64,000 nt of DNA from an uncultured Ohtaekwangia sp. (GCA_964549855.1 CAZJWV010000002.1:55762-119761); one strand, 5' to 3'. Positions 9,650 to 62,827 are shown, numbered from the stretch's first letter. Notes: generated by a model from the sequence alone, not told the origin. Numbers and translations are program-made.

Positions 9650-9652
9650 CGT

Positions 9653-10057
9653 ATGAATGCGATCCGGATTGAAGTGCCTGCCCTGACGGAGAACATCAGG
9701 ATGATTGAGAGCTTTATTGACAACGCCAGGGAGAAGTTCAAGCTGGACGACGATATCTATGGCAACATCATGATTGCCGTTACCGAGGCCGTCAATAATG
9801 CGATCAAGCACGGAAGCAGCAGCGATTCTTCCAAGAATGTGAATCTCTCACTACTTGTTGACGGCAGTACTCTCAAATTCCGGGTGGAGGATGCGGGCCG
9901 CGGATTTGATTACATGCATTTGCCCGACCCCACTGCCCCCGAAAACCTTGAAAAACCGGGTGGAAGAGGCATTTTTCTGATGAAACACCTGGCTGATGAT
10001 GTCGCCTTTCTGGAAGGCGGTCGCGTGGTTGAACTAAGCTTTTATATGAATGCCTGA
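9653..10057 (+). CDS. HATPase_c anti-sigma-factor-type serine kinase (RsbW/SpoIIAB-like ATP-binding protein)
   Basis: N-box EAVNNAIKHG, G1 box DAGRGFD and G2 box GGRGIFLM. 134 aa. Starts 4 nt after the upstream stop. Confidence 0.8.
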   Translation: MNAIRIEVPALTENIRMIESFIDNAREKFKLDDDIYGNIMIAVTEAVNNAIKHGSSSDSSKNVNLSLLVDGSTLKFRVEDAGRGFDYMHLPDPTAPENLEKPGGRGIFLMKHLADDVAFLEGGRVVELSFYMNA

Positions 10058-46473: not shown

Positions 46474-47793
46474 ATGAGATCCCTTATCGTTCTCCTCTTC
46501 ATTGTTGCAGTCGCGACGGCGGCTGCACAGACAAATCCGAAACTACAGGCTAAACTTGACGCACAGGCTGCGGAAATGGAAGCGAAAGTGATCGAGTGGC
46601 GGCGGCATTTTCATCAATACCCTGAACTATCCAACCGGGAGACGAAGACGGGTGCCTACATCGCCGAGTATTTGAAAACGCTCGGGCTTGAAGTCAAATA
46701 CCCTGTTGCAAAGACCGGCGTGGTGGCCACCCTGCAAACCGGCAAGCCTGGTCCCGTGATTGCCCTGCGTGCCGACATTGACGCATTGCCGGTGACGGAG
46801 CGAAACAGCCTTCCTTTCGCCTCGAAGGAGAAAGCGATGTTCAACGGTCAGGAAACAGGGGTGATGCACGCCTGTGGACACGATTCGCACATCGCGATCC
46901 TCATGGGCGTGGCGACCATTCTTTCGAAAAACAAGAGTGACCTGAAAGGAACCATCAAGTTTTTCTTCCAACCCGCAGAAGAGGGAGCGCCGGCCGGGGA
47001 AGAAGGCGGAGCTGCGTTGATGATCAAGGAAGGCGTGTTGGACAACCCGAAAGTGGAGGTGGCGTTCGGGCTGCACATCAGTTCGATGACCCCGGTAGGC
47101 ATGATTACCTATCGCCCCGGGGGATTGCTCGCCGCGTCCGACACATGGTCGATTACTGTGAAGGGACGGCAAGCACATGGTTCGGCGCCGTGGATGGGCG
47201 TGGACCCGATCGTCGTGTCGGCCCAGATTATCAATGGACTTCAAACCATTATCAGCCGGCAGAGTGAATTGACTAAAGAAGCAGCAGTGATCACGGTGGG
47301 CAGGTTCCAGTCGGGCATTCGCGAGAACATTATCCCGGAAGAGGCTTTCATGGCCGGAACGATCCGGACACTGGATGCAGGAATGCAGGACAAGATTCAT
47401 GAGAAGATCAAACTAACAGCGACGAAGATTGCTGAAAGCGCTGGAGCCACGGCTGTGGTAGACATTCGCAGGGGTTACCCCATCACGTATAACAATCCTG
47501 CCTTGACGGAGAAGATGGCACCAAGCCTGGAGCGTGCGGCCGGCAAGGACAAAGCGCAGCGCATCAATGCGTCCACGGGGGCGGAGGATTTCTCATTCTT
47601 TCAGCAGCAGGTGCCGGGCTTGTTCTTTTTTGTCGGGGGCATGACACAGGGTTTGGATGCAGGCAAAGTTCCGTCCCACCACACACCTGATTTTATGATC
47701 GACGAAAAGGGATTCATCACCGGGATCAAGGCGATGCTGAATGTGACGACGGATTATATATATATGCCGACCAAGACTGGAATCAAGAAGTAA
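46474..47793 (+). CDS. M20/M20D family amidohydrolase, secreted, copy 2 (tandem paralogue)
   Basis: Signal peptide MRSLIVLLFIVAVATAAAQ. Motifs EWRRHFHQYPELS, GVMHACGHDSH and FFFQPAEEG. Starts 1 nt after the copy 1 stop. Confidence 0.9.
   Translation: MRSLIVLLFIVAVATAAAQTNPKLQAKLDAQAAEMEAKVIEWRRHFHQYPELSNRETKTGAYIAEYLKTLGLEVKYPVAKTGVVATLQTGKPGPVIALRADIDALPVTERNSLPFASKEKAMFNGQETGVMHACGHDSHIAILMGVATILSKNKSDLKGTIKFFFQPAEEGAPAGEEGGAALMIKEGVLDNPKVEVAFGLHISSMTPVGMITYRPGGLLAASDTWSITVKGRQAHGSAPWMGVDPIVVSAQIINGLQTIISRQSELTKEAAVITVGRFQSGIRENIIPEEAFMAGTIRTLDAGMQDKIHEKIKLTATKIAESAGATAVVDIRRGYPITYNNPALTEKMAPSLERAAGKDKAQRINASTGAEDFSFFQQQVPGLFFFVGGMTQGLDAGKVPSHHTPDFMIDEKGFITGIKAMLNVTTDYIYMPTKTGIKK
47698..47793 (+). 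repeat. Direct-repeat copy A (3' end of M20 copy 2), partner at 51428-51520
   Basis: 68/75 nt identical to 51428-51502 when aligned codon by codon. Confidence 0.8.
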
Positions 47794-47794
47794 A

Positions 47795-50770
47795 TTAATG
47801 TACCACCTGAACATGCTTTGAGACACTCATTCCCTCGGCACTGGTAACTCTCAGGACATAGAGGCCCGATTTCAATGATTCGGTGTTAATCTTGATCTTT
47901 TGCTTCTCAGTCGAGCCCTTGAAAACAGTCATCCCGGAAATGTCATAAAGGGCCACCTCATAGGGACCATGAAATTCTTTTTTCTCCGACAGATCTTCGA
48001 TTGAAACGAACAGTTCGTCACTCGAAGGATTGGGATAGGGTGTAACGATCTGGCAAGGATTGCAGCCGCCCTCTGTGGTGATGGTGACAGGCAGGGAGGA
48101 GGAGGTAGTACCGCAGCCGTTGGTTGACAGAAGGTTTACAGTACCTTCCGTCCCTTGTCCGCTCCAGTAGACCTGAACGGTAGGCTGTGTGTCACTCCAG
48201 CCGAAGTTCCATCCACTGCCCCCAATAGACCACTGGAAGGCATAAGGATTACCGTTATCCCCTGCCTGGTAAGTGTAAATCTGGTCAGGATAGACCTGAG
48301 TCGGACCGTTGATCACACCGGGGGGTGGGCCCACCCAGATATTTGTACTAATATTTAGAACGGGCTGACACAGCCCCAACACCTGATAACCGATTGAGAC
48401 CGGCCCAGTGTAGGATGAATTGATAATGTTTAGTGAAGCCGTCCGGCCCGTTCCCGAGCTTGAGCTGAAGTAAGAGGCCGGGGAAGCGGACCAAGTGATC
48501 GTAGCCGAGGCGGGGAATGTACCGTTCAGCACAGCGTTCTGTGGAATGGCATGGCATAGAAAAAAAGGCGGTGTGATTACAGCACCATAGTCAGGTTGAC
48601 ACGCGGAAGAGCAATAGTTATTATTTGGAGTGTTCTGAATTTCCCTGAACATCCATTCTGCATTTCGTGCTGTAAAGACTGCTGAATGGGACGCATTGTA
48701 TTCAACCGGATTGCCAAAAGCCTCTTGAGCAATGAAATTAGAAACACGCGCCTGATAGGTATTACTAACACCGCCAACATAGGTAGCGGTGGTAGCCCCT
48801 GCGTTTATTAGCGTCATGTCAAGGGCACTAACCAAGGGTACAAATGTAAAACCACCTGGGTTTACATAGGCTCCTGCATTGTAGTAGAAAAATGGCGATA
48901 ATCCACCACTAGAAGTGACGGCGCTCGCACCGAGGTATTTAGAGATATTAAATGTGCCACCCGGAATTCCGTCCCAAGGCAGGAGGTTGGTTGGTGAATT
49001 GAAGGTGTCATTTGTCAAGTTCTCTTCGACCTCGATAAAGAACAAAATGGTATAACTAAACCAGAACCTGACTTTGGAGATTCTCTGGCTGGTGCCCATA
49101 GATGGCAATGAATTGGCTATTATTTCTGAGTGCAAGCCCACACCCGTAACAACAAATGGTATGAAACCGATGCTAGCGCCCGCCTGCAACCGAAGCAATT
49201 CTTGATATGGAGCCAACACCTGATTTCCACATTGTGATCCAAGCGAAGTTGCCTCAACCTTGTACGTCGGCTGAGGGCCTGAAGGAGAGAAGGTAATCAT
49301 GTTGCGATATTCGTTGTCCAGGAATGCATTTGGAGTATATGATCCGGTGCCGTTGGTCGCACGGGTTATAAGCATTTGCTGGGTCGCTGTGGCGTCCAAC
49401 AAGGCATTGGCAACGGCAATCTGTGGAACAAGATCTCGCACATTAATGTCCGAGATAAGCTTGGCTGTGTAGAGGGATCGTGTCATGGCCTGAATACCAA
49501 GCGGGATGTTAGCGCCGCGGTGAGGGCTGTCCAGCGTGAAAAGCAGCCGCGTCCCCGTTGGATCTGGGCCGTTCTTCGTCATATCGGCCAATGCATATCG
49601 GGCAACCAATCCACCCATGCTGATTCCGAGGATGACATTGGGTTCATTGCCACTCACCGTGGCTTTGTTGTCATTTACCCACTTAATTACCTTTTTGAGA
49701 AGGGCAGCATTTCGGCGAATGTCAGCTGTACCAATGTTAAAATTCTAACACCAGATCGTATCCGCCAACTTCGTCAAGCTTTTGATTCAGGTCATATTGA
49801 GTTTCAATTGCTGCCATGAGGTTGATAAAGTCAGTGTAGTTGAAGGCGGATCTCAACTGAGGGGCGATATAGCTAACATCATAGCCCTCTACAACAACTA
49901 GGGGCTTTTTCAACTTTTTGGGATTACTAGTGGTATTTGTAGTGCTATACTTAATATAAGCGGTCCCACCATCGTGAGTGGGCTCAGCCGGAAACACCTG
50001 CGCCGCTGGAGTTCCTATATATCTCTGTTGGCCACCCGAGACATTGGTAACCTCGATAGAGGAGTAGCATTGATAGGTCGAATTGTCGGTGAATACCAGC
50101 TTGATTTTTATTTGTTTTACTCCCTTCGTTGTGTAGGTTCCTGAAATGGGCACATTCCATGATGCGGTAACATAGCCGCCCCCAGTACCAAAGTCTACAC
50201 TAATTGAAGACAAGGTCTTGGTGCTAGAATTGAAGAACAGGTTTTGGCTGAAGACTAAGGATGGACCGCCATGATCAACGTACCCAATAGTCGGGGTAGC
50301 CACAAATGCTGTCTTGGCGATGTACGGAGATAATTGTCGTCCAGAACATCGAAAAGCTGATTATTTTGAATTGTAAACAGGTTAAGATTGAGAGCATCTG
50401 GCCGAATTCTATTGTATTCGCTGAAAAGAACTGCGACCGGTATTGCCCCATTGGCTGCCGATTCAGCGCTGGCGATTGTGGAATTCACTGTGGCCAATGA
50501 GGCCAAAGGATTGGTTCCCTGAATTCGGGAGGACTGAATAGTTCCATACACATGTCGCCATACAGGCGCTGTCACCTTATTGCTGTCAGTAAGCAGACCA
50601 TTGAACGGATGCAGGGAGATGAGCGGTGCGCCAAACTCAGCAAGAAATCCGGTCGTGATTTCTGTTTTGTTGACATTGGCGAACACGTTGTTGAGCTTAT
50701 CACGCAACGGGTCAGTCTGCGCATGGACAGTAACGACGCATAACAGCAGCAAAAGTGTAAAGAGTTTCAT
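47795..50770 (-). pseudogene. T9SS-secreted alpha/beta-hydrolase (lipase/esterase-like) multidomain protein, disrupted by two frameshifts
   Basis: Three consecutive minus-strand ORFs read as one protein of about 990 aa.
- 50255-50770: signal peptide MKLFTLLLLLCVVTVHAQ.
- 49737-50303: Ig-like region, then ...PLVVVEGYD...GGYDLVLEF.
- 47795-49657: the upstream in-frame extension NFNIGTADIRRNAALLKKVIKWVN leads into the GxSxG nucleophile elbow GISMGG, followed by repeats and the T9SS C-terminal sorting domain ...LKSGLYVLRVTSAEGMSVSKHVQVVH.
Frame changes are confined to about 50330-50340 and about 49745. Confidence 0.6.
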
Positions 50771-50788
50771 AATTGTTGTCTTGAAAGT

Positions 50789-51307
50789 CTAATGCAATCT
50801 AATGTCAAACCTTCCCTCTGTTACCGAGATCTCTGTACAGCCTCCAGTCGAGTGGAAAATAAAATCAAATTTCCCCGCAACAATTCCGCTAATCAAGTCA
50901 AGCTTTTCCAAAACGAAGTGTCCGGTGACACTGTCGGCATCCTGATGGTATTCGCATCCAGCTTTGTGATCAAGGAAAACAGCGCCGGGCAGATCGGGTC
51001 CGCTTGCTAGGATGTAGTCTCCGGTAGAACTAATGTTATTTCCTCCAAATGAAATAAACTGATTTGTTGTATTGTTATTCACGTAAGCGCTTATACCTAA
51101 AGATCCACCGTGAAAGGTTGCGTCATAGCTAGCATATGGGTTGTCCAATCCACTGTTGCCGTCTGGGAGCCATATCGCTTCGTTCAATTTAAAGCCAAAC
51201 GTGTTCTTGCCTTCCTGCGTGGCTGGCGGTAAGCTCTTTGGACCAACATCTTGCTTGCAGCCCATCAAAGCCAACAAGAGAATAAATAGCCCCCATGAGA
51301 TTCGCAT
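50789..51307 (-). CDS. Small lipoprotein, paralogue 1 (possibly DUF6252-like)
   Basis: Lipobox LALMGC, then LPPATQEGKNTFGFKLN. 172 aa. Paralogue of 51639-52163. The family name is from memory only. Confidence 0.7.
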   Translation of the reverse strand: MRISWGLFILLLALMGCKQDVGPKSLPPATQEGKNTFGFKLNEAIWLPDGNSGLDNPYASYDATFHGGSLGISAYVNNNTTNQFISFGGNNISSTGDYILASGPDLPGAVFLDHKAGCEYHQDADSVTGHFVLEKLDLISGIVAGKFDFIFHSTGGCTEISVTEGRFDIRLH

Positions 51308-51412
51308 AAGGAAATTTACAAATTCAAAACAGCTTCTTGATTATGCCTCTCTTAAATGACGAAGAACAGGGGATTAAATCTTCAAATCTTCCCTGCATGG
51401 GAGTTACTCCCA

Positions 51413-51520
51413 TGATTTTATTTCATCATCGATGAGAAGGGATTCATCACGGGTATCAAGGCGATGCTCAACGTGACGACGGATTATATGTATATGCCGA
51501 CCCTAGGGTCAAAGAAATAG
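51413..51520 (+). pseudogene. Start-less remnant of an M20 amidohydrolase 3' end
   Basis: Encodes FIIDEKGFITGIKAMLNVTTDYMYMPTLGSKK*, versus FMIDEKGFITGIKAMLNVTTDYIYMPTKTGIKK* at the end of copy 2. There is an in-frame TGA at 51413-51415 and no upstream coding continuation. Confidence 0.75.
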
Positions 51521-51638
51521 CGACCGAGTTCCGTACAAAGCTGCACGAGGAATTACTGGAGAAGTCGGCTGCTTACTTGCTCATCAGGCACTGACGCCGC
51601 GCTGGGAGCGGGCGGCAAGTAAAGATTATGCAGTTGAT

Positions 51639-52163
51639 CTATATTCTTATATCAAACCTTCCCTCTGTGACTGAAATGGTACTGCATCCTGTTTTTGAAA
51701 ATGCAAGTTCAAACGTTCCTGATACGATGCCATTACCAAGATCCAGCTTTGTAATCGTGAAGGAGCCCGAGACGCTGTCCTGCGGCTCATTATAAGTGCA
51801 TCCGACTGAGTTGTCCGAATAGTATGCTCCGGGGGAACCAGAGCCAGGCGGGCCTGTTACGTGATAGGTTCCTAGGGAGGATAAATTAATCGCGCCGAAC
51901 GAAATGAACTGATCAATCTTGTCAGTTCTTACATAGGCATAAATGTCCAAGGTGCCCCCCTGATAGGTTGGGTCATAACTTGCATCAAGGTTTGCAGTTC
52001 CATCAAATCCCGTAGGAATCCAGATCTCTCCATTTAGCCGAAATCCAAAGGTGTTCTTTCCCTCTTGGGTGGCTGGCGGCAATAGTGGGACCGGAGATTT
52101 GCTCAACAGGTTGCAGCCCACCAAAACCAACAAGAAAAAATGCGGTGCCAAAGAGATTCGCAT
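51639..52163 (-). CDS. Small lipoprotein, paralogue 2
   Basis: Lipobox LVLVGC, then LPPATQEGKNTFGFRLN and a C-terminal ISVTEGRFDIRI. 174 aa. Confidence 0.7.
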   Translation of the reverse strand: MRISLAPHFFLLVLVGCNLLSKSPVPLLPPATQEGKNTFGFRLNGEIWIPTGFDGTANLDASYDPTYQGGTLDIYAYVRTDKIDQFISFGAINLSSLGTYHVTGPPGSGSPGAYYSDNSVGCTYNEPQDSVSGSFTITKLDLGNGIVSGTFELAFSKTGCSTISVTEGRFDIRI

Positions 52164-52253
52164 AAGGAAATTTACACAATCAAAAGCCTCTCATATAATT
52201 CTGTGAAGAATCCCCGATTCGTTTGTGTTTCTATACAAGAAAATTCCCCCGCT

Positions 52254-54302
52254 ATGAAAAGGCTGTTTTCTCTTGTAATGGTCCTTGCGGCCACGCTGGC
52301 CCAGGCCCAACACGTGCCCACATTCGAAGAAGTAATCTCCCTACGGGGTGTTGTCGGTGTCACAATTTCTCCCGATGGTAAAGACGTTGCGTTTGGTGTG
52401 GCTAGCACCGACTGGAACGACAACCGATACGACACAGAAATATGGCTCTCACGCAACGGCGGCACGCCATATCAACTCACCAACACGCCGAAAGGCAACA
52501 GCGGCAACCGCGCCTTTTCACCTGACGGCCGCTGGCTCGCTTTTTTGGCCAACCGCGGGAACAAGGATCAAATCCACGTCATCAGGTTGGACGGCGGTGA
52601 GGCGAAGGTGGTAACGAATGAGACTGAAGGGATCTCCTCTTTTGAGTGGCATCCATCCGGGACATCTTTTATTGTACAACGCCAGGAGAAGGAAGACCCT
52701 AACAAGAAAGAACGGGAGAAGCGCTATGGTGGGTTTGAAGCGGATGATGCCGAGTTCACGGTTCAGCACCTCTGGCAAATTCCCTTCGATCTCAATTTTC
52801 GTGATCCATCAGAAATGCCCTGCTATGAAAAGTCCGATTCGCTTAAAGCCAAGGCGGGCTGTCTTGAGTGGCCGAAAGCCATGCGACTGACGGAAGGGAA
52901 GTTTACGGTTACCAATTACTCCACTTCACCGGACGGGACGAAGATTGCCTTTTCCCATCAGCCGAATCCGCTGATCAACACAGGAGTGAAGTCCGATATA
53001 TCGATACTTGAATTGAAGACTAAAGCCGTATCCAAAATCGTGTCCAACGCCAGTGGCGATTCTTTCCAGGATTGGTCACCCGACTCGAAAGAAATCATCT
53101 TTACCACCAGTGGTTCGGATACTTTGTCAAATTTTTACAAAAATGGCCAGGCTTTCGTAATGAACCTGGCTACTAAAGCCACGCGGCCCATTGCCAAGAA
53201 CATTGATGAGGATGTTGGTGGTTTTATTTGGCGCTCCACGGGAATCTTTACAGCGATGCAAGCCAAAACCAAGCGCATCATGTATCGCATCGACCCGGGA
53301 ACCGGCAGCGCTACTCCGGTGATGGGCATGCCTGAACTGGTGGGACAACTTTCTTTCTCCCGGTCAGGCGACCAGTTTGCCATGACAGGGCGCAACGGCA
53401 ACCAGCTGACGGAGGTTTTCATTTCACCGACGGCCGCGCCCGCGCTGAAAAAGATCACCGACATGACCAGTCAACTCAGCAATTGGAAAGTTGGGAGCAG
53501 CGAGGTGATTTCCTGGAAGAGCAAAGACGGCGCAACAATTGAAGGCGTCCTAAGCAAACCGGCAAACTATGACGCCGCGAAAAAGTACCCCCTTCTTGTC
53601 GTGATCCACGGTGGCCCGACGGGAGTGGACACACCAACTCCGGTGCCCGGCAGTGTTTACCCGATTGTACAGTGGCTTGACAAAGGAGCGCTCGTGCTTC
53701 GCGTCAACTACCGCGGCTCTGCAGGCTACGGCGAGGCTTTCCGGTCACTCAATGTGAGGAACCTTGGCGTTGGCGACATGTGGGACGTGATGTCCGGTGT
53801 TGACTATCTCGATTCGAAAAAGATGATCGACCGTTCGAAGATGGGATGCATGGGATGGAGCCAGGGAGGATACATTTCCGCGTTTCTCACCACCAATACC
53901 ACGGATTTCAAAGCCATCTCAGTGGGCGCCGGCATTTCAAACTGGATGACCTACTATGTAAACACCGACATCCACCCCTTTACGCGCCAATATTTGAAGG
54001 CAACCCCGTGGAGTGATGAGGCTATCTACAAGAAGACATCACCAATGACGAACATCAACAACGCTAAAACACCAACGCTCATTCAACACGGTGAGTTCGA
54101 TCGTCGTGTTCCCATCGCGAATGCATACGAACTATTGCAGGGACTCCGCGACAGGAATGTTCCGTGCGAGCTTGTGGTGTACAAGGGCTTCGGTCACGGG
54201 ATCAACAAGCCGAAAGAAAGGCTTGCCGCGAACTGGCATAACTGGCAGTGGTTTGCCAAGTACGTCTGGAACGAGAAGGTAGAGATTCCTATTGGCAAAT
54301 AG
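52254..54302 (+). CDS. S9 family peptidase (TolB-like beta-propeller plus prolyl-oligopeptidase catalytic domain), secreted
   Basis: Signal peptide MKRLFSLVMVLAATLAQAQ (ATG at 52254). PD40-like SPDG repeats. Nucleophile GWSQGGY. Asp/His region HGEFDRRVP...GFGHGI. Confidence 0.9.
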   Translation: MKRLFSLVMVLAATLAQAQHVPTFEEVISLRGVVGVTISPDGKDVAFGVASTDWNDNRYDTEIWLSRNGGTPYQLTNTPKGNSGNRAFSPDGRWLAFLANRGNKDQIHVIRLDGGEAKVVTNETEGISSFEWHPSGTSFIVQRQEKEDPNKKEREKRYGGFEADDAEFTVQHLWQIPFDLNFRDPSEMPCYEKSDSLKAKAGCLEWPKAMRLTEGKFTVTNYSTSPDGTKIAFSHQPNPLINTGVKSDISILELKTKAVSKIVSNASGDSFQDWSPDSKEIIFTTSGSDTLSNFYKNGQAFVMNLATKATRPIAKNIDEDVGGFIWRSTGIFTAMQAKTKRIMYRIDPGTGSATPVMGMPELVGQLSFSRSGDQFAMTGRNGNQLTEVFISPTAAPALKKITDMTSQLSNWKVGSSEVISWKSKDGATIEGVLSKPANYDAAKKYPLLVVIHGGPTGVDTPTPVPGSVYPIVQWLDKGALVLRVNYRGSAGYGEAFRSLNVRNLGVGDMWDVMSGVDYLDSKKMIDRSKMGCMGWSQGGYISAFLTTNTTDFKAISVGAGISNWMTYYVNTDIHPFTRQYLKATPWSDEAIYKKTSPMTNINNAKTPTLIQHGEFDRRVPIANAYELLQGLRDRNVPCELVVYKGFGHGINKPKERLAANWHNWQWFAKYVWNEKVEIPIGK

Positions 54303-54396: not shown

Positions 54397-55509
54397 CTAC
54401 CATTCAGTCAAGAGGTAATTTGTGCTCCTGCCGCCGGCCGGGTCCTTTATTAAGACCTTTTTCTCCACCAGGTCCTGAATATCCCTTAACGCCGTGTCGT
54501 GAGAGCATTTGGCGATTTTTGCCCACTTGGATGAAGTCAGCTTTCCTTCGAAATGGTCAAGCAATTTGTTCAGCATTAGTTGTTGTCGCGGGTTGAACCG
54601 AGTGGCGGCATGTGAATCCCAGAATTTTGCTTTTTTCATCACGCCTTCCAGGGTCTCACCCGAAGCGGTCAGCGCACGGTCAAGGCACGCAAGGAACCAT
54701 TCAAGCCATTCTGTGATGTCGAGTGTTCTTTTTTGTGTGCTCTCCAGGATGTCGTAGTAATCACTTCGCTCTTTCCTGATCTGGGCGGACATGCTGTAAA
54801 ACCGTTGCGGGCTCTCATCGGAACGGGTAAGCTGCATATCAGCGATCGCTCGCGCAATCCTGCCGTTGCCATCGTCAAACGGGTGAATCGTAACAAACCA
54901 CAGGTGCGCAAGTCCCGCCTTCAGAACGGGATCAATGTCTGCAGTGTGATTGAACCAACCCAGAAATGCGGTCATCTCCTTATCAAGAACTTCCGCCCCG
55001 GGTGCTTCGAAGTGGACACGTTCTTTTCCCATGGGTCCGGAGACCACTTGCATTGGATCTTCTTTCGGATTGTCACGCCATGCCCCGACCTTGATCTTTT
55101 GCAGGCCACTCCGGCCTGTTGGGAACATTGCCGCGTGCCAGGAAAACAATCTCTCAGCGTTTAGTTCTTTTTGATAACTCTGTGTAGCGTCCAGCATCAT
55201 TTCGACAATGCCCTCCACACTTCGGTCGGCGGGGATCAGTCCGGCGATATCCATGCCCAGCCGCCTGGCAATAGAAGAGCGCACCTGGTCCGGGTTCAGC
55301 AGTTCGCCTTCAATCTCACTTGACTTTAGTACGTCCAGTGTTAGGGTTTCCAGCGTGGCTTCATTTCGCAGGTTAAATCCCAACGCCTCCATGCGGCCCG
55401 TGAGCTTTCCTTGCTTGTGTCGCACGGTAGCCAGCATCCTGGAAAGCCTTTCTTGTTGCCAATTGAATTTCGGCCAATCTGGGCGTTGATGTATATATAT
55501 TGTACGCAT
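54397..55509 (-). CDS. Fic family protein (class II, N-terminal inhibitory helix, C-terminal wHTH)
   Basis: Fic motif HPFDDGNGRIARA. Internal inhibitory motif SSEIEG, which fits (S/T)xxxE(G/N). 370 aa. Confidence 0.9.
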   Translation of the reverse strand: MRTIYIHQRPDWPKFNWQQERLSRMLATVRHKQGKLTGRMEALGFNLRNEATLETLTLDVLKSSEIEGELLNPDQVRSSIARRLGMDIAGLIPADRSVEGIVEMMLDATQSYQKELNAERLFSWHAAMFPTGRSGLQKIKVGAWRDNPKEDPMQVVSGPMGKERVHFEAPGAEVLDKEMTAFLGWFNHTADIDPVLKAGLAHLWFVTIHPFDDGNGRIARAIADMQLTRSDESPQRFYSMSAQIRKERSDYYDILESTQKRTLDITEWLEWFLACLDRALTASGETLEGVMKKAKFWDSHAATRFNPRQQLMLNKLLDHFEGKLTSSKWAKIAKCSHDTALRDIQDLVEKKVLIKDPAGGRSTNYLLTEW

Positions 55510-57457: not shown

Positions 57458-57486
57458 GGGTTGGTGGTCGATGCGAGTTGGAAGGA

Positions 57487-58521
57487 TCAGTTGGGTGTGT
57501 GCTTGTCCAGGAATCCGTTCGAGCGATTCGTCCAGGAGTCCATGACGGACTGCCGGCCTTTGTTGTATTCGTTGTTGGCGTTGTTGACTTTGTTAACCCA
57601 CAGGTTGTAATCCTTCACGGCTTTGTTAAAGGCGTCGTTATCTTCCTGGGTCGGGTTCCGCTTCGCATCCATGGCCTTCTTCATCTTTTCGAAATTTTCC
57701 TTCTTGAGCTGAAACTCTACAAACACAGGAAAGTAGGCCGTTGTCGCTTTCTTGTAAAAAGTAAGCACTTGTTGACAGGCCGCTTTCAAGGATCCGTCAC
57801 CGTTGTATGCCGGCTGGGGTCCGACCTTGGTAAGACCCTCATTGACGCTGGCGATGAGGGCGTTGTTTGATTGTTCCATGGCCCCCACGTCGCCCTTGTT
57901 CAAAGCATCCAGGAAATAAACCTCGTCCTTGAAACTCTTAAAGAAAACAAGATAGACCTTGTTGTAATACAGGTTGACCTTTGTCGCTTGCTCCATCTTT
58001 TGTGAGAGTTTGCTCTCGGATTCTACCAGGCGAATGTTGTTGGCGCTTGCAAATGCCTGCACTTCCCTCTCCAGGCGCACTTCAGCGAGATCCAGTTTGT
58101 CATTGGCTTTTTCCTTCGCGAGGAGGTAGGCCTCCATCAGGTCGTAGGATTGCTCGGCGATGTCTTCCATGTTGAGGATTTTTCCATAATCCTCGGTGAC
58201 GACATGCTGGGCGAGACGCAGGAATGCCGTCGTTGAGTCTCGAAGCTTGCTGTCCTTCTGGTAGGGCTTCATGCGCCTAACGTTTAGTTCAGATTGCTTC
58301 ATCTGCTGGATGAGCTCCACGCGTCGCTTGTCAACTTTCCGTGCGCTCTTTCCATGATTCACAGCGCTGATGTAACTCAACATTGCTTTTGAAATGGCGC
58401 GGTGCTGATCGCCAAGGAAGCTGAGGTAGTCACCCGCACTTGTGGATTCCTGCGCGAGTAAGGGCCCGGCGGCCAGGAGTAAGGCAAAGAAGGAGGTGGC
58501 ACGAAGGAAACGCATGTTCAT
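57487..58521 (-). CDS. Hypothetical secreted all-helical protein
   Basis: Signal peptide MNMRFLRATSFFALLLAAGPLLAQ. K/E-rich helical sequence. ATGA overlap with the upstream S41 gene. Confidence 0.6.
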   Translation of the reverse strand: MNMRFLRATSFFALLLAAGPLLAQESTSAGDYLSFLGDQHRAISKAMLSYISAVNHGKSARKVDKRRVELIQQMKQSELNVRRMKPYQKDSKLRDSTTAFLRLAQHVVTEDYGKILNMEDIAEQSYDLMEAYLLAKEKANDKLDLAEVRLEREVQAFASANNIRLVESESKLSQKMEQATKVNLYYNKVYLVFFKSFKDEVYFLDALNKGDVGAMEQSNNALIASVNEGLTKVGPQPAYNGDGSLKAACQQVLTFYKKATTAYFPVFVEFQLKKENFEKMKKAMDAKRNPTQEDNDAFNKAVKDYNLWVNKVNNANNEYNKGRQSVMDSWTNRSNGFLDKHTPN

Positions 58522-60557
58522 TTCTTCATAGGCAACAGGTCATTCAGAATAAAAAAGGCTTCACGAATGTAGTGGCTTTGTTGTATCTCTTTCAATGCTT
58601 CGTTGCTCACGTCACGATGATACGTGTCAACCTGATGGAGCCCCTCCGTGGATGAAATGTGCCTGACCGCGTAGGTCGTTGTCGCCACCCTCTCGGCCAC
58701 CATGTTGCCCTGTTTTTCGACACTGTCAATGTACCTGACGAATGCCTGAACTTCGAGCGGCACGGACCCTTTGAGCAACACTTGAAACTGTTCAATGGAT
58801 TTGAATCCATTCGCTGCGCTTACTCGATCCATACTCCGCTTCCGAAGGTCGTCAACGGGCAGATCCGGCAAGGGTGTGTAGTAAATTTTTCGTGTTAGGT
58901 CGCGGGGCTGAATGGGATTTCGCAACAGCGCCTCGCGCTCGCCCATCACCTCGGTAATCTCCGGCAACCGGATGTCTGGTTGAACGCCCGTCAACTGAAG
59001 GCTCTTCCCCGTGACGCGGTTAATGCGATCGATGGTGACTTTGGCGAACCCGTTTCTGTTCACGCCGGCACCCACGGGAATAATCGTCTGTCCCGTTGCC
59101 TTCCCATACGTGCTACAACCCATGACGACGGCACGATGATAATCCTGTAAGGCAGCCGACACCAGCTCCGATGCCGAGGCACTAAACGCGTTGACCATGA
59201 TAAGCAGTGGCCCATCGTAAGCGCTGCCCCTGCGATCATCACGCAGTGTTAATGGTGGTTCACCACGTCTCTCCATCGACGCCACGGGGCCTGCGTCCAG
59301 AAAGATACCGGCCAATTCAAGCGCCTCCATCACCGATCCGCCCCCGTTAAAGCGCAGGTCCAGGATCAACCCCTGGATTTTTTCCCGCTTGAGCTTGATG
59401 ATTTCCTTCGCGATATCTCCGGCGCATCCGTGGCCCCGTCCTTCATCAGGGCTGGTGTAGAATCCGGGCAGGGCAACATAACCGAATTTCACTTCCCCCT
59501 CGAGAACGAAACTGGAGATCAGGTTCTCGACGTTTTCAATTTTCTCCTTTGTCAGGGATATCGTCTTCCATCGGCCATCTGCCTTCCGGATTTTGAACTC
59601 GGCTTGCTGGATGTCCGGGTTGTCGATTCGGGAAAGGATTTCTTGGATTTCAAGATCAGCAAAATCGACGGTAGATGAGGTGCCGGCCTTCATGCTCACC
59701 AGTACATCCCCCTCTGTCAATTCCTTGGAGCGCCAGGCTGGGCCGCCCGGCAGCATGCGCTGGACAATGGGCTCGCCCATCCGGTTTACGCCGAGGTCAA
59801 TACCAAAAGCAAGCTCCACAGGCCGAATTTCTCTTTCAAAGGCCTCCATTTCGCCGTCAGTGAAATACTCTGTGTGTGGATCGAACGACTGGCATATCGC
59901 CCGTTGAAAGGCAAGGTTCACAAATGTTTCCAGGCCTTTTTCAGAATTCAGCAGCCGATCAGCTGCACTCCAGTATCGCTTCCTCACACTTTGACGTGCA
60001 GGGACTTCGAAAGACAGCAAGCGATTGGCATCGACGTTCCCCTCCTCTGCCCGCGCAAGCCTGGAAGCCTTGCTGAGTATTTCAAACTTCAGTTCTTTCA
60101 GCATCAACTGCCGTTGCGCGGAGCGATTTGTCAACGGCTCTTCCTTGCCCATCACGGCGATGGATTCTGCCACCTTGTAGTTAAGGGGACGGTTAAGCGT
60201 GGAGTCCACATAGCGTTGGGTTGACTGAATCCGTGCACGCAACATTTCTGTGGAAGTCGCAATTATCCGACACGTACCCGAACGGAGTTGGTCGTCAATT
60301 TCGAGCGAGTAAACGGCCAGAACGGTTGAGTCTTCGCGGCTGAGGTATTGCTGTTCCGGGTCAAGCTGGAAGAGGAACTCCCGGAACACGCGGAGTGAAA
60401 ATTCATCGTTGAGGGTTTGGGGCTCGAGGTGGATTTTATTGACTTCCAGGAAAAGATCGTGCGCTGCTACGCATTTCTGCGCAAATACCGGCTGCACGAG
60501 AAAGGAGCCGAACCCCAGGACCAGCCCGTACAACCGTGATTTGACTGTGCAGTTCAT
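58518..60557 (-). CDS. S41 family C-terminal processing peptidase
   Basis: Motifs DLRFNGGGSVMEA and VNAFSASASE. Starting at M18 (60557) gives the signal peptide MNCTVKSRLYGLVLGFGSFLVQPVFAQ. The maximal ORF start is 60608. Confidence 0.85.
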   Translation of the reverse strand: MNCTVKSRLYGLVLGFGSFLVQPVFAQKCVAAHDLFLEVNKIHLEPQTLNDEFSLRVFREFLFQLDPEQQYLSREDSTVLAVYSLEIDDQLRSGTCRIIATSTEMLRARIQSTQRYVDSTLNRPLNYKVAESIAVMGKEEPLTNRSAQRQLMLKELKFEILSKASRLARAEEGNVDANRLLSFEVPARQSVRKRYWSAADRLLNSEKGLETFVNLAFQRAICQSFDPHTEYFTDGEMEAFEREIRPVELAFGIDLGVNRMGEPIVQRMLPGGPAWRSKELTEGDVLVSMKAGTSSTVDFADLEIQEILSRIDNPDIQQAEFKIRKADGRWKTISLTKEKIENVENLISSFVLEGEVKFGYVALPGFYTSPDEGRGHGCAGDIAKEIIKLKREKIQGLILDLRFNGGGSVMEALELAGIFLDAGPVASMERRGEPPLTLRDDRRGSAYDGPLLIMVNAFSASASELVSAALQDYHRAVVMGCSTYGKATGQTIIPVGAGVNRNGFAKVTIDRINRVTGKSLQLTGVQPDIRLPEITEVMGEREALLRNPIQPRDLTRKIYYTPLPDLPVDDLRKRSMDRVSAANGFKSIEQFQVLLKGSVPLEVQAFVRYIDSVEKQGNMVAERVATTTYAVRHISSTEGLHQVDTYHRDVSNEALKEIQQSHYIREAFFILNDLLPMKK

Positions 60558-60643
60558 TTTCCGGGGAATTTCCGCGAGCGGTGGTGTACAATTTACCGAT
60601 TCGTTCAAACTTCGTTACCTATCTCAGCCCAAAATCCACAGGT

Positions 60644-62827
60644 ATGAAAAGAATACTATTTCTCCTTTTCCTTGTTCCGGCGCTCTGCTGGGCCCAATCG
60701 AAAAAACCGATCGTTGCCTCCGACCTGATGAAGATCGTTACAACGAACCAAATCCAGATTTCACCTGACGGCAGCAAGGCTGTCATGGTGGTGAACAGGA
60801 AGGCAGTGAAGAATGACAATGAATACTATTACACGCGTCACCTGTACCTGGTAGACCTGTCGGGGACTACCTCGCCGCTTCAGCTGACTTTTGGCGACCG
60901 CAGCGATGGTCAGCCGCAATGGTCTCCGGACGGAAAACAAATCGCGTTCACCCGTGTTGACGGAGAGCGAGGCCAAATCTGGATCCTTCCCCTTACGGGC
61001 GGAGAGGCACACGCAATCACCAAAGCCGAGCATGGAGCTGGTAGTCCGCGCTGGTCGCCTGATGGAAAAAAGATTCTTTACACGTCAGGCATTCCTTTCT
61101 ATGCCATCGACGGGTCAACACCCTGGGCGTACGAAAGGCCGGGGCGCAAGCAGGGCGACGAGCCCAACTTTAAGAAAATGAAAGCTGATGAGAGGAAAAA
61201 GACCGCCACCGCACCCGACGGCAGCCTCGATGAAATCCGGGCCTGGCTCGCCAAGAATGCCAGCGAGTCGAACCCGCGCGTGCTTAACCGCCAGAATCTG
61301 CAAGGCGAACTGAATCTCCAGCCAGATGAAAACTTTTCACACCTCTTCGTCATTGCCTCCAATGGCGAGGGTGCCGCTACCCAACTCACGAGCGGTTATC
61401 AAGACTTTGACGGCGCCGAGTGGTCGCCCGATGGCAAGAAGATCATCTGCACATCGCGTGTTTATAAGATCCATCCCGATCGCGAGCTCGACAGTGATCT
61501 TTGGATGATTGATGTTGAGACCAAGTCGGCAAAAGAATTTCTAACCTGGAAGGGCTATAGTATTGGCGGAGGAAGTTTCTCTCCAGACGGAACACAGATT
61601 GTCTTCAGTGCTACAAGCGTTGCCAATCGCCACGCGACACAAAACCAATTGGCCGTCATTTCTTCAGCCGGTGGTCAGCCGCTGCTGATCACGGCTTCGT
61701 TGGATCGCGATGCAGGCGGCGAAGTATGGTCGACTGACAGCAAAACGGTTTACTTCGTTGCGCCAGCAGATGGCGACTTCCCATTGTATAGCGTTGCTGC
61801 CAAAGGAGGGACCATTACGAAGATTACCGGTTCGGATACGGGCGTGCGAGATTTTGATGTCAGCGGGGATAAGGTCGTCTATGCGCTTACGGAGACAAAG
61901 AACCCCTGGGAAGTTTACGTCTACAACGCGAAGGACAAGTCTAACAAGATGCTGACCCAATTCAACGATGGCTGGATGAAGGAACGCCTGGTTTCTATTC
62001 CCAAGGAACATTCGATTACGCGACCAGATGGGACCAAAGTACAGTACTGGGTGATGGAGCCCGTTGGGCGTAAGGAGGGCACCAAGTATCCGACCATTCT
62101 CAACATTCACGGAGGCCCGACCGCCATGTGGGGTCCGGGTGAATTCTCCATGTGGCATGAATTCCAATTGGAAAATAGCTGGGGGTATGGCGTGGTGTAT
62201 TGCAACCCGCGCGGGAGCGGCGGCTACGGCGACAAATTCAAGAAAGCCAACTTCAAGGACTGGGGTCCCGATCCGTCCGCCGACATCCTTGCTTCGCTGG
62301 ACGATGCAATCAAGAATTATTCTTGGATCGACAAGGACCAGTTGGTGGTGGAAGGAGGCAGCTACGCCGGCTATATGGTTGCGTGGATCATCGGTCACGA
62401 CAACCGGTTCAAAGCCGCCAATGCGCAGCGCGGCGTGTATGAACTCACAACATTCATGGGAGAAGGCAATGCCTTTTTCCTCGTACCAAACGATTTTGGA
62501 GGCTATCCGTGGGATCCAGAGACCAAGAAACTCCTGGACTCGGAATCTCCGTATAACTATGTGAAGAACATCAACACACCGTTTCTCATCATTCACGGTG
62601 ACCAGGACCTTCGCACGGGCGTGACGCAGTCGGAGATGCTGTATAAGAGTCTAAAAATTCTTAACAAGCCTGTGGAATATGTCCGCTATCCGAAGGAAGG
62701 CCATGAGCTGACGCGTAGCGGCAACCCCGGCCGGATGATGGACCACCTGCTGAGGGTGATTGAGTTCTTCGAGCGGTACGTGAAGCACCCGGAAGCGCCG
62801 GCAGCTACGGTGAAAATTTCTCCCTAG
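60644..62827 (+). CDS. S9 family peptidase (beta-propeller plus catalytic domain), secreted, second copy
   Basis: Signal peptide MKRILFLLFLVPALCWAQ. Repeated WSPDGK blades. Nucleophile GGSYAGY, then HGDQDLR...EGHEL. Confidence 0.9.
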   Translation: MKRILFLLFLVPALCWAQSKKPIVASDLMKIVTTNQIQISPDGSKAVMVVNRKAVKNDNEYYYTRHLYLVDLSGTTSPLQLTFGDRSDGQPQWSPDGKQIAFTRVDGERGQIWILPLTGGEAHAITKAEHGAGSPRWSPDGKKILYTSGIPFYAIDGSTPWAYERPGRKQGDEPNFKKMKADERKKTATAPDGSLDEIRAWLAKNASESNPRVLNRQNLQGELNLQPDENFSHLFVIASNGEGAATQLTSGYQDFDGAEWSPDGKKIICTSRVYKIHPDRELDSDLWMIDVETKSAKEFLTWKGYSIGGGSFSPDGTQIVFSATSVANRHATQNQLAVISSAGGQPLLITASLDRDAGGEVWSTDSKTVYFVAPADGDFPLYSVAAKGGTITKITGSDTGVRDFDVSGDKVVYALTETKNPWEVYVYNAKDKSNKMLTQFNDGWMKERLVSIPKEHSITRPDGTKVQYWVMEPVGRKEGTKYPTILNIHGGPTAMWGPGEFSMWHEFQLENSWGYGVVYCNPRGSGGYGDKFKKANFKDWGPDPSADILASLDDAIKNYSWIDKDQLVVEGGSYAGYMVAWIIGHDNRFKAANAQRGVYELTTFMGEGNAFFLVPNDFGGYPWDPETKKLLDSESPYNYVKNINTPFLIIHGDQDLRTGVTQSEMLYKSLKILNKPVEYVRYPKEGHELTRSGNPGRMMDHLLRVIEFFERYVKHPEAPAATVKISP

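What the first reader, a model, noticed from the sequence alone, without database searches (positions are those of the whole stretch)
47698..52200. A 3.6-kb insert bracketed by two diverged copies of an M20 gene 3' end
**The repeat.** The last ~100 nt of M20 copy 2 recur at 51428-51520 as a start-less fragment.
- Over 25 aligned codons (47698-47772 vs 51428-51502) I count 68/75 identical bases.
- All 7 differences are at third codon positions (6 synonymous, one Ile to Met). This suggests the two copies diverged while each was part of a functional gene.
- Weaker similarity with a 9-nt gap continues ~20 nt upstream (tcccaccacacacctgatttta vs tcccatgatttta).
- An in-frame TGA lies at 51413-51415.
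- A perfect hairpin CATGGGAG-tta-CTCCCATG (51396-51414) sits at the fragment's left edge.

**What lies between the copies.** Only minus-strand cargo is present: a frameshifted T9SS hydrolase gene and a lipoprotein. My spot GC counts on single 60-nt lines are as follows.

| Location | Line start | GC |
|---|---|---|
| Insert | 47881 | 45% |
| Insert | 48541 | 45% |
| Insert | 49021 | 38% |
| Insert | 50101 | 37% |
| Flank | 46981 | 65% |
| Flank | 53581 | 58% |
| Flank | 45601 | 45% |

The insert looks AT-richer, but this needs a proper calculation.

**Interpretation.** To the right of the fragment, 118 nt away and convergent, is the paralogous lipoprotein (51639-52163). The pair 'fragment plus lipoprotein 2' therefore looks like the ancestral junction. 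The segment 47794-51410 looks like DNA that arrived carrying its own replacement 3' end, as integrative elements targeting gene 3' ends do. No integrase, transposase or tRNA is present. An alternative is a tandem duplication of a ~0.8-kb unit, or loss of a third tandem M20 copy.
Basis: partly seen in the sequence, partly recalled or inferred. Interest (0 to 1): 0.7.

Follow-up and report, generated by a model that had tools for sequence, protein, structure and literature searches.

The report
Recombination scar in a variable gene slot
A 100-base start-less copy of a peptidase gene's end, still attached to the first codons of its former neighbour gene, is a dead leftover showing that DNA from a related bacterium reshuffled a highly changeable gene slot without any mobile-element enzyme.

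Summary
The repeat is real. Positions 47690-47772 and 51420-51502 match at 74 of 83 bases, and all 9 differences in 27 aligned codons are at third positions. The start-less copy is a stub of an M20_2 orthologue, not of a third paralogue.

New here: 16 bases after the stub's stop lies a decayed relic of the first ~16 codons of a DUF2157 gene (51536-51576). In the closest relatives, DUF2157 directly follows M20_2.

The interval between M20_2 and the S9 peptidase is hypervariable in relatives. It can be empty, or hold a DUF2157 pair, a lipoprotein, or a hydrolase plus lipoprotein. The DUF6252 lipoprotein plus T9SS hydrolase pair is a conserved operon. In relatives it sits in three different slots of this neighbourhood, twice flanked by stubs of neighbouring genes.

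No integrase, transposase or tRNA is present. A single tandem duplication is rejected. The best reading is a scar of recombination with DNA from a related lineage, with at least one illegitimate junction at the base of a conserved palindrome. This resembles the 3'-end displacement known from rhs and T6SS loci.

Which segment was the incoming one is unresolved. The finding is real but of modest novelty.

The parts
46474..47793 (+). M20_2, full-length M20-family amidohydrolase gene. It carries repeat copy A (47690-47772) in its last 34 codons.
   Evidence: Pfam Peptidase_M20 and M20_dimer. 92% aa identity to orthologues in L086 and L088. The junction with the hydrolase stop, 1 nt away, is orthologous to the one in L088.
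47795..50770 (-). T9SS-secreted alpha/beta hydrolase gene (PGAP1-like lipase/esterase region, PKD-like domain, Por_Secre_tail), broken by two frameshifts near 50350 and 49745.
   Evidence: Pfam. tblastn of the intact 1000-aa homologue from L084 gives three collinear pieces in frames -1/-3/-1. The frameshift sites were read directly. The deposited record calls only the 620-aa piece (P0241).
50789..51307 (-). Lipoprotein 1 (DUF6252 family), the first gene of the lipoprotein-hydrolase operon.
   Evidence: Homologues carry PF19765. Lipoprotein followed by hydrolase is conserved in at least 13 of 28 distant metagenome loci.
51308..51395 (-). Upstream region of lipoprotein 1. Its first ~25 nt (51308-51331) are a leader conserved in all family members.
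   Evidence: Repeat D2. Alignment of upstream regions from seven loci.
51396..51414 (.). Perfect 8-bp palindrome CATGGGAG-TTA-CTCCCATG. It is a conserved element of the lipoprotein upstream region. Its last two bases overlap the start of M20 homology, which is illegitimate junction 1.
   Evidence: Unique in the window. Folds at -10.6 kcal/mol, z = -2.5. 17/18 match 70 nt upstream of the L006 lipoprotein. Related palindromes occur in L084 and L119, with one G-C to A-T change on both arms.
51413..51520 (+). Start-less stub of an M20_2 orthologue (last ~35 codons plus stop). It has a 5-nt insertion at 51419-51423 and a clean reading frame over 51422-51520.
   Evidence: Its 27 aa are identical to L088's orthologue. 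It matches M20_2 orthologues far better than M20_1 or third copies.
51536..51576 (+). Relic of the first ~16 codons of a DUF2157 membrane-protein gene. The ATG is lost and there is a 1-nt frameshift. It is the original downstream neighbour of the stub.
   Evidence: Local alignment to DUF2157 5' ends of ten relatives scores 19, against 9.9 +/- 1.4 for shuffles (0 of 3000 as good). nhmmer E = 0.047 against the whole window, at the right strand and offset. DUF2157 starts 3-25 nt after M20_2's stop in L120, L121/L122, L117, L002-L005 and L061.
51577..51638 (.). G+C-rich spacer of unassigned origin between the DUF2157 relic and the stop of lipoprotein 2. Illegitimate junction 2 lies at about 51576/51577.
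   Evidence: No similarity to DUF2157 or to any fetched locus.
51639..52163 (-). Lipoprotein 2 (DUF6252), an old paralogue or allele of lipoprotein 1.
   Evidence: 53% aa identity to lipoprotein 1. Synonymous sites are saturated, pS = 0.81. Closest homologues are only 59-60% identical (L082, L084).
52254..54302 (+). S9 prolyl-oligopeptidase-family gene, the conserved right flank of the variable slot.
   Evidence: Pfam. Orthologous in L086, L001-L007, L117 and others.

Best explanation
The stretch 51413-51576 is a non-functional scar. It is the last ~35 codons of an M20_2 orthologue, still joined to the first ~16 codons of the DUF2157 gene that follows M20_2 in the commonest version of this locus.

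The M20_2-to-S9 interval is a hypervariable slot, and different relatives carry different cassettes in it. In this genome, at least two versions of the slot, from related but distinct lineages, were joined by recombination. One end was anchored in a conserved flank gene (M20_2 or S9). The other end was joined illegitimately.
- Junction 1 lies at the 3' base of a conserved palindrome upstream of lipoprotein 1 (51412-51414, 2-nt overlap).
- Junction 2 lies at about 51576/51577.

The order I favour has two steps.
1. An ancestor with M20_2 > DUF2157 lost most of DUF2157 and the genes after it when a lipoprotein-2 segment arrived, anchored in S9.
2. DNA carrying an M20_2 3' part, the hydrolase and lipoprotein 1 then recombined homologously inside M20_2. 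Its far end joined illegitimately at codon ~417 of the resident gene. This pushed the resident 3' end downstream.

No dedicated mobile-element enzyme is involved, and the stub itself does nothing.

Shown:
- the anatomy;
- the xenologous nature of the stub;
- the variability of the slot;
- the absence of recombinases.

Inferred:
- the recombination mechanism;
- the order of events.
For: **The stub evolved inside a working gene**
- All 9 differences in 27 codons are at third positions; pS = 0.43, dN = 0.03.
- If the stub had been a pseudogene since an in-genome duplication, the probability of this pattern is about 5e-4. The stub can have been dead for at most ~13% of its lineage's divergence time.
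- Its divergence from copy 2 (72/81) is like its divergence from other species' orthologues (L001 70/81, L004 69/81; L088 71/81 from the counts).
- Its 27 aa are identical to L088's orthologue.

**The DUF2157 relic**
- It lies at the right strand and offset after the stub.
- M20_2 > DUF2157 adjacency is seen in L120, L121/L122, L117, L002-L005 and L061.

**The slot is variable**

| Content between M20_2 and S9 | Loci |
|---|---|
| Empty | L086/L087, L078, L021, L027 |
| DUF2157 pair | L001-L005, L061, L120 |
| DUF2157 pair plus four more genes | L121 (L122 shows the same start) |
| Lipoprotein only, then DUF2157 pair | L082 |
| Hydrolase plus one lipoprotein | L006, L118; L088 at least the hydrolase |
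| Hydrolase plus lipoprotein, then DUF2157 pair | L119 |

**Junctions and flanks**
- The M20_2/hydrolase junction is orthologous in the window and L088.
- The palindrome belongs to the lipoprotein upstream region in relatives, so junction 1 is a join of unrelated sequences with only 2 nt shared.

**Parallel scars next to the same operon**
- L117: a 119-nt direct repeat, plus an M20_1 5' stub that resembles L082's allele.
- L084: pieces of hyp336 on both sides.

**Lipoprotein alleles are decoupled from the species tree**
- L082 vs L117: M20_2 94% identical, lipoprotein 50%.

**Independent support and absence of mobility genes**
- A separately assembled contig (L081) is 100% identical over 51361-52251, which covers both junctions.
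- No integrase, transposase or tRNA is present.

**Mechanistic precedent**
Against: - The homologous crossover could not be located. Sliding-window comparison of M20_2 and S9 with in-clade and out-clade relatives shows no chimerism. So the direction, meaning which segment came in, is open.
- No sampled genome is close enough (best ~81% nt identity) to show the immediate precursor haplotypes.
- The favoured order needs two events.
- The DUF2157 relic is short (41 nt aligned), and its whole-window nhmmer E-value is only 0.047.
- Whether this organism takes up DNA is unknown.
- L081 may come from the same sample as the window. It proves read support, not independent occurrence.
Confidence: 0.62

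Rival explanations
1. **Patch capture.** The genome already had a lipoprotein 2 - lipoprotein 1 - hydrolase array. A short (~165 nt) piece of DNA from a related M20_2 > DUF2157 genome was captured as filler during repair of a break next to the palindrome. This would be one event with two illegitimate junctions and no homologous anchor.
For: - Arrays of two tandem DUF6252 lipoprotein genes upstream of the hydrolase exist (L103).
- Both ends of the relic are illegitimate junctions, and one lies exactly at a palindrome base.
- It needs only one event.
Against: - No close relative shows a lipoprotein-lipoprotein-hydrolase array in this slot.
- Capturing a piece that happens to come from the orthologous position of a related genome would be a coincidence without a homology anchor.
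Confidence: 0.15
2. **Trimmed third paralogous block.** A second, functional M20-DUF2157 block once sat between the two lipoprotein genes. It was recently deleted from both sides, leaving the stub and the relic.
For: - The third-position-only pattern only requires that the stub was in a working gene until recently.
- Third tandem M20 copies exist in L039, L040 and L045.
Against: - None of the 80+ related loci has an M20 gene between lipoprotein genes or any stray M20 3' fragment.
- The third copies in relatives have a different C-terminus (67-77% aa identity to the stub, against 88-93% for close M20_2 orthologues and 27/27 for L088).
- It needs a non-tandem duplication plus two deletions.
Confidence: 0.1
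3. **Integrative element.** A site-specific element targets the 3' end of M20_2 and carries a replacement 3' end. The repeats would be attL and attR.
For: - Direct repeats of a gene's 3' end bracket AT-richer cargo.
- Empty-site relatives exist.
Against: - No integrase or other recombinase lies in the unit or within ~12 kb, and there is no tRNA.
- The same hydrolase-lipoprotein pair abuts M20_2 in L006, L088, L118 and L119 with no second repeat.
- The same operon sits in two other slots, flanked by stubs of different genes.
- The DNA missing at the empty site is 47805-52246, not the repeat-bounded unit.
- The right repeat is followed by a DUF2157 relic, not by the resident downstream gene.
Confidence: 0.04
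4. **In-genome tandem duplication.** A 0.8-kb unit (M20 end plus lipoprotein) or the 3.7-kb unit was duplicated, and the copies then diverged in place.
For: - The two lipoprotein genes and the two M20 ends are both in direct orientation, spaced ~850 nt and 3730 nt apart.
Against: - Synonymous divergence differs greatly between the two repeated parts: pS = 0.43 for the M20 ends, and 0.81 (saturated) for the lipoproteins.
- A copy that was dead from birth would not show 9 of 9 third-position differences (P about 5e-4).
- The DUF2157 relic has no counterpart after copy 2.
Confidence: 0.04
5. **Assembly chimera.** Two co-occurring strains with different slot versions were joined by the assembler.
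For: - The window probably comes from a metagenome-assembled genome (P0001, P0008 and P0241 sit on one 142-kb NCBI contig).
Against: - Junction 1 joins sequences that share only 2 nt, which is not what a shared-k-mer misjoin looks like.
- A separate low-coverage contig (L081) spans both junctions identically.
- The left junction is orthologous to the one in L088.
Confidence: 0.03

Closest known systems
3'-end (C-terminal) displacement in rhs, CDI and T6SS effector-immunity arrays, proposed to arise by homology-facilitated illegitimate recombination (Kirchberger et al. 2017, PMC5361080, read; that paper cites Jackson et al. 2009, which I did not read).
   Same: - A full-length gene is followed downstream by a start-less, diverged copy of its own 3' end, together with that end's former neighbour.
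- Incoming DNA is anchored in the conserved part of the gene.
- The other junction is illegitimate.
- No recombinase is needed.
   Different: - The M20 3' ends are conserved housekeeping sequence, not polymorphic toxin domains.
- There is no toxin-immunity logic.
- The displaced neighbour (DUF2157) is itself truncated.
- The cargo lies on the opposite strand.
Homology-facilitated illegitimate recombination during transformation or conjugation (PMC3240628, abstract seen; the original Acinetobacter and Streptococcus studies are recalled from my own knowledge).
   Same: - One homologous end and one illegitimate end with a few bases of microhomology.
- It adds foreign DNA next to an anchor gene.
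   Different: - This is inferred here from a natural scar, not observed.
- The homologous end could not be mapped.
- The route of DNA uptake in this organism is unknown.
Genomic islands and integrative elements that insert into the 3' end of a tRNA or protein gene and restore it with their own copy (own knowledge).
   Same: - Direct repeats of a gene's 3' end bracket AT-richer cargo.
- The gene stays intact.
   Different: - No integrase is present.
- The cargo is present at the same place in relatives without a second repeat.
- The boundaries do not match the empty site.
- The same cargo sits at other sites, flanked by other gene stubs.
Replacement-type flexible genomic islands: hypervariable slots between conserved genes, exchanged by homologous recombination in the flanks (own knowledge).
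   Same: - Flanks are conserved (M20_2, S9).
- At least six different contents occur among relatives.
- The slot genes have lower GC and GC3.
- Lipoprotein alleles are decoupled from the species tree.
   Different: - A clean replacement leaves no scar.
- Here an imperfect (illegitimate) event left a stub that records the earlier content.

Membership tests
Site-specific integrative element targeting a gene 3' end | An integrase or other site-specific recombinase encoded in or next to the element | tested here: not met
   Only the hydrolase and lipoprotein ORFs lie in 47.8-52.2 kb. No recombinase domain is found in ORFs from 35 to 64 kb. No tRNA.
Site-specific integrative element targeting a gene 3' end | The repeat-bounded unit is absent as a whole from empty-site relatives, and the same cargo is always bounded by the same repeats | tested here: not met
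   L086 lacks 47805-52246, which includes the stub, the relic and lipoprotein 2. L006, L088, L118 and L119 have the cargo next to M20_2 with no second repeat.
Site-specific integrative element targeting a gene 3' end | Direct repeats (attL/attR) sharing an identical core | tested here: inconclusive
   The repeats are 83 nt long and 89% identical. By my reading of the repeat alignment, the longest identical run is 17 nt.
3'-end displacement by homology-anchored illegitimate recombination | A full-length gene followed by a start-less copy of its own 3' end that evolved as part of a functional gene elsewhere | tested here: met
3'-end displacement by homology-anchored illegitimate recombination | The displaced end is still attached to its former downstream neighbour | tested here: met
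   A DUF2157 5' relic lies 16 nt after the stub's stop. The adjacency is seen in the closest relatives.
3'-end displacement by homology-anchored illegitimate recombination | One junction illegitimate with little or no microhomology, the other homologous within the anchor gene | tested here: inconclusive
   The illegitimate junction at 51412-51414 has a 2-nt overlap. The homologous crossover is not detectable with relatives at ~81% nt identity.
Polymorphic toxin / immunity arrays (rhs, CDI, T6SS) | Variable toxic C-terminal domains, each paired with an immunity gene | tested here: not met
   The M20 C-termini are conserved across species. The neighbours are a lipoprotein, a hydrolase and a membrane protein.
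Tandem duplication | All parts of the two units equally diverged, with the truncated copy neutral since birth | tested here: not met
   pS is 0.43 for the M20 ends and 0.81 for the lipoproteins. 9 of 9 differences at third positions has P about 5e-4.
Hypervariable slot (replacement flexible island) | Conserved flanks with different gene content in related genomes, and atypical composition | tested here: met
   (gene content). (composition, also in L006, L088 and L082).

The most novel reading that the evidence does not exclude
The DUF6252 lipoprotein plus T9SS hydrolase operon behaves as a cassette that moves without a recombinase.
- Among close relatives it occupies three different slots of one conserved 10-kb neighbourhood: after M20_2, between the Rieske gene and M20_1, and after hyp336.
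- It always has the same orientation.
- In three genomes it is flanked by stubs of the neighbouring genes. Two of these stubs (the window's M20_2 end and L117's M20_1 start) differ from the resident copy as another lineage's allele would.

This could reflect a systematic process: repeated one-sided-homology integration driven by selection on surface proteins, perhaps seeded at the conserved upstream palindrome. The alternative is a set of unrelated accidents.
Probability: 0.2. Interest if true: 0.55.

Novelty: new member of a known kind. Interest (0 to 1): 0.3.

Why it matters
The scar gives a dated, base-level record of how a flexible gene slot in uncultured soil and wastewater Cyclobacteriaceae-like bacteria changes content without mobile-element enzymes. 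A short stub preserves the previous occupant (DUF2157). It also shows that DNA from another lineage was involved.

It is a caution for annotation. Start-less gene ends next to AT-rich cargo are not by themselves evidence of an integrative element.

If the cassette-hopping pattern is systematic, it would make one-sided-homology recombination a measurable source of surface-protein turnover in Bacteroidota.

Tried and rejected
- **Leftward extension of the repeat** beyond 51413: not better than shuffles. It is explained by the conserved palindrome.
- **Chimerism scan** along hyp336-M20_1-M20_2 against L086 and L088, and an in-clade versus out-clade contrast along M20_1-M20_2 and S9: no breakpoint, so the direction of transfer is unresolved.
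- **Search for other stray M20 3' fragments** in 80+ related loci: none.
- **Metagenome scan with a hydrolase alignment:** only distant homologues (at most 39% identity). It was useful only to show that the operon is conserved.
- **Exact-protein look-ups** of lipoprotein 1 and of P0001: nothing on record.
- **Second half of the spacer (51577-51645)** against DUF2157: no similarity.
- **The spacer and the lipoprotein upstream regions** against all loci by blastn and tblastx: only the conserved leader and the palindrome match.
- **Low GC as evidence of recent arrival:** rejected. The same offset exists for these genes in L006, L088 and L082.
- **Literature search for DUF6252:** no papers.
- **tRNA and Rfam scans:** nothing.

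Full report
**1.

The last part of the second M20 gene (46474-47793, here M20_2) recurs at 51420-51502. The match is 74 of 83 bases, blastn E = 4e-24.
- In codon register, 27 codons (47692-47772 vs 51422-51502) differ at 9 positions, all third positions. Seven are synonymous and two swap Ile and Met.
- The copy has its own stop at 51518-51520, no start, and an in-frame TGA at 51413-51415.
- The perfect hairpin at 51396-51414 exists and is unique in the window.

Between the copies, on the minus strand, lie two genes.
- A T9SS-secreted alpha/beta hydrolase is split by two frameshifts near 50350 and 49745.
- A DUF6252 lipoprotein, lipoprotein 1, follows.
- Lipoprotein 2 (51639-52163) is 53% identical to lipoprotein 1.

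No tRNA, Rfam family, integrase or transposase lies nearby.

One sub-claim fails. The supposed weaker similarity ~20 nt further left is no better than chance.

**2. Composition**

The stretch 47.8-52.2 kb is the lowest-GC part of the window.
- GC is 0.44-0.49 against 0.518 +/- 0.021.
- GC3 is 0.48-0.52 against 0.60-0.65 in the flanks.
- Tetranucleotide deviation reaches z = 3.6.

The AT-rich stretch includes lipoprotein 2. The same genes are equally AT-shifted in relatives whatever their arrangement (L006, L088, L082). It is therefore a property of these gene families, not a mark of recent arrival here.

**3. What relatives show**

A scan of species-representative genomes returned 80 loci from Cyclobacteriaceae, Ohtaekwangia and Chryseolinea-like MAGs. 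Most of the closest ones show the conserved order TPR, hyp336, Rieske, M20_1, M20_2 ... S9, beta-lactamase.

The interval between M20_2 and S9 is hypervariable.

| Content of the slot | Loci |
|---|---|
| Empty (in L086, M20_2's stop is 12 nt before the S9 start; window 47805-52246 is absent) | L086/L087, L078, L021, L027 |
| DUF2157 gene plus a 388-aa gene | L001-L005, L061, L120 |
| The same pair plus four more genes | L121 (L122 shows the same start) |
| A lipoprotein 44 nt after M20_2's stop, then the DUF2157 pair | L082 |
| Hydrolase plus one lipoprotein | L006, L118; L088 at least the hydrolase |
| Hydrolase, lipoprotein, then the DUF2157 pair | L119 |

Further points from the relatives:
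- The M20_2/hydrolase junction (1 nt between the stops) is orthologous in the window and L088.
- Hydrolase divergence scales with M20_2 divergence in L088 and L006.
- None of these loci has a stray M20 3' fragment.

**4. What the start-less copy is**

It matches M20_2 orthologues, not M20_1 or the third tandem copies seen in L039, L040 and L045.
- Its 27 amino acids are identical to L088's orthologue.
- At the nucleotide level it is about as far from the window's own M20_2 (72/81) as from other species' orthologues (69-71/81).
- pS is 0.43, compared with 0.63-0.66 for whole M20_2 genes between the three closest species.
- If the copy had been dead since an in-genome duplication, most differences would have arisen on its own neutral lineage. 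Nine of nine at third positions then has a probability of about 5e-4. It can have been a pseudogene for at most ~13% of its lineage's divergence time.
- The two lipoprotein genes are saturated at synonymous sites (pS = 0.81). One tandem duplication therefore cannot explain both repeats.

**5. A new piece: the stub's original neighbour**

The closest M20_2 relative (L120, 93% aa identity) has a DUF2157 gene starting 22 nt after M20_2's stop. Window bases 51536-51576, which begin 16 nt after the stub's stop on the same strand, align to the first ~16 codons of the DUF2157 genes of ten relatives.
- The relic has a lost ATG and a 1-nt frameshift.
- The local alignment score is 19, against 9.9 +/- 1.4 for 3000 shuffles, none as high.
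- A profile search of the whole window finds it as the second-best hit, E = 0.047.
- The remaining 62 nt up to lipoprotein 2 match nothing.

So 51413-51576 is a stub of an 'M20_2 > DUF2157' junction. That is the commonest arrangement among the nearest relatives. It is not an ancestral M20/lipoprotein-2 junction.

**6. The left junction**

The hairpin is not a by-product of the join.
- The same palindrome lies 70 nt upstream of the lipoprotein gene in L006 (17/18 bases).
- Related palindromes occur in L084 and L119, with one G-C to A-T change on both arms.
- It belongs to the lipoprotein-hydrolase promoter region and is most simply an operator-like site. This is an inference.

M20 homology begins at the last two bases of the palindrome (51413/51414, TGATTT). 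A 5-nt insertion follows before the clean frame starts. Junction 1 therefore joins unrelated sequences with a 2-nt overlap, which is an illegitimate junction.

**7. The cargo is a conserved operon that turns up in several slots**

DUF6252 lipoprotein followed by this hydrolase is conserved in at least 13 of 28 distant metagenome loci. One of them (L103) has two tandem lipoproteins. Among close relatives the operon also lies in two other slots.
- In L117 it lies between the Rieske gene and M20_1. There it is flanked by a 119-nt direct repeat (89% identical) and by a ~35-codon stub of M20_1 that resembles L082's allele rather than L117's own gene.
- In L084 it lies downstream of hyp336, between a hyp336 3' end and a frameshifted, 5'-truncated hyp336 piece.

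The orientation is the same in all cases. Lipoprotein identity is decoupled from the species tree: L082 vs L117 are 94% identical in M20_2 but 50% in the lipoprotein.

**8. Most likely mechanism**

Two versions of the slot from related but distinct lineages were joined by recombination. One end was anchored in a conserved flank gene, and the other was illegitimate. This is what homology-facilitated illegitimate recombination does (abstract of PMC3240628). The same process has been proposed for displaced 3' ends and orphan neighbours in T6SS effector-immunity arrays and rhs loci (PMC5361080).

I favour two steps.
1. A lipoprotein-2 segment anchored in S9 truncated DUF2157.
2. DNA carrying an M20_2 3' part, the hydrolase and lipoprotein 1, anchored in M20_2, joined at resident codon ~417. 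This pushed the resident 3' end downstream.

The reverse roles are equally compatible with the data. So is capture of a 165-nt foreign patch at a break beside the palindrome. Both flanks keep their in-clade affinity right up to the slot, and no crossover can be seen with relatives at ~81% identity.

**9. Is the structure real?**

A separately assembled 891-nt contig (L081, ENA ERZ3430527) is 100% identical to 51361-52251 and spans both junctions. The left junction is orthologous to L088's. Junction 1 shares only 2 nt between the joined sequences, unlike a k-mer misjoin. Whether L081 is independent of the window's sample could not be checked.

**10. Verdict**

It is a new example of a known kind of scar. 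The stub itself has no function. The recurrent stubs around the same operon in relatives are the most interesting lead.

Noticed in passing
window 54397-55509 (-): A DUF4172 + Fic gene lies between S9 and the beta-lactamase-family gene. Relatives (L001-L003, L005, L086, L117) have S9 followed directly by the beta-lactamase gene, so this is a second small insertion in the same neighbourhood.
   Followed up: partly
window 57458-60691: About 3.2 kb (a 344-aa ORF with no Pfam hit plus an S41 tail-specific protease) has no aligned counterpart in L086. There the sequence goes from the beta-lactamase gene to the next S9-family gene within ~150 nt.
   Followed up: partly
window 7000-10000: This is the only other stretch of the window with a tetranucleotide deviation as strong as the hydrolase region (z up to 4.3, GC 0.49). 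It overlaps a 1122-aa ORF at 6281-9649.
   Followed up: no
window 51396-51414; L006 14923-14940; upstream of the lipoprotein gene in L084 and L119: A palindrome (A)T(G/A)GGAG-TAA-CTCC(C/T)A(T) is conserved 70-120 nt upstream of the lipoprotein gene in four genomes, with one compensatory change on both arms. It is absent upstream of lipoprotein 2. It is a candidate operator or RNA hairpin of the lipoprotein-hydrolase operon.
   Followed up: partly
window 51308-51331 and 52164-52185: A ~25-nt leader just upstream of the start codon (TTGAATTYGTAAATTTCCTTATGCGAAT on the coding strand) is conserved across lipoprotein genes that are otherwise only 40-60% identical.
   Followed up: partly
L117 (reverse complement) 736-852 vs 4747-4864, and 826-940: The lipoprotein-hydrolase operon lies between the Rieske gene and M20_1. 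It is flanked by a 119-nt direct repeat of the divergent promoter region. The first 58 nt are almost identical and the rest is diverged. There is also a ~35-codon M20_1 5' stub that resembles L082's allele.
   Followed up: partly
L084 (reverse complement) 1-223 and 4131-4226: The intact operon is bracketed by a frameshifted, 5'-truncated piece of hyp336 (residues ~196-269) and by the 3' end of hyp336 (residues 305-336). The contig ends on both sides, so the full structure is unknown.
   Followed up: partly
L082 2277-2450, 2460-2633, 9538-9706; L117 13034-13095; L122 4744-4881: A ~170-nt sequence seems native to the intergenic region upstream of the 103-aa ORF and the TPR gene. It is present twice in tandem upstream of L082's lipoprotein gene, and 62 nt of it lie right after the hydrolase stop in L117. 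This is another ectopic copy of neighbourhood sequence at the operon's borders.
   Followed up: partly
window 49744-49746 and ~50345-50354: The two frameshifts in the hydrolase gene put ~200 codons out of frame. The shifted segment still matches homologues at 52% identity. They are either recent inactivation or sequencing errors. The deposited record calls only the 620-aa piece.
   Followed up: partly
window 51483-51512 (-): An 11/12 match to the sigma-70 promoter consensus lies antisense inside the M20 stub and points toward lipoprotein 1. It is probably irrelevant, because Bacteroidota use a different promoter consensus.
   Followed up: no
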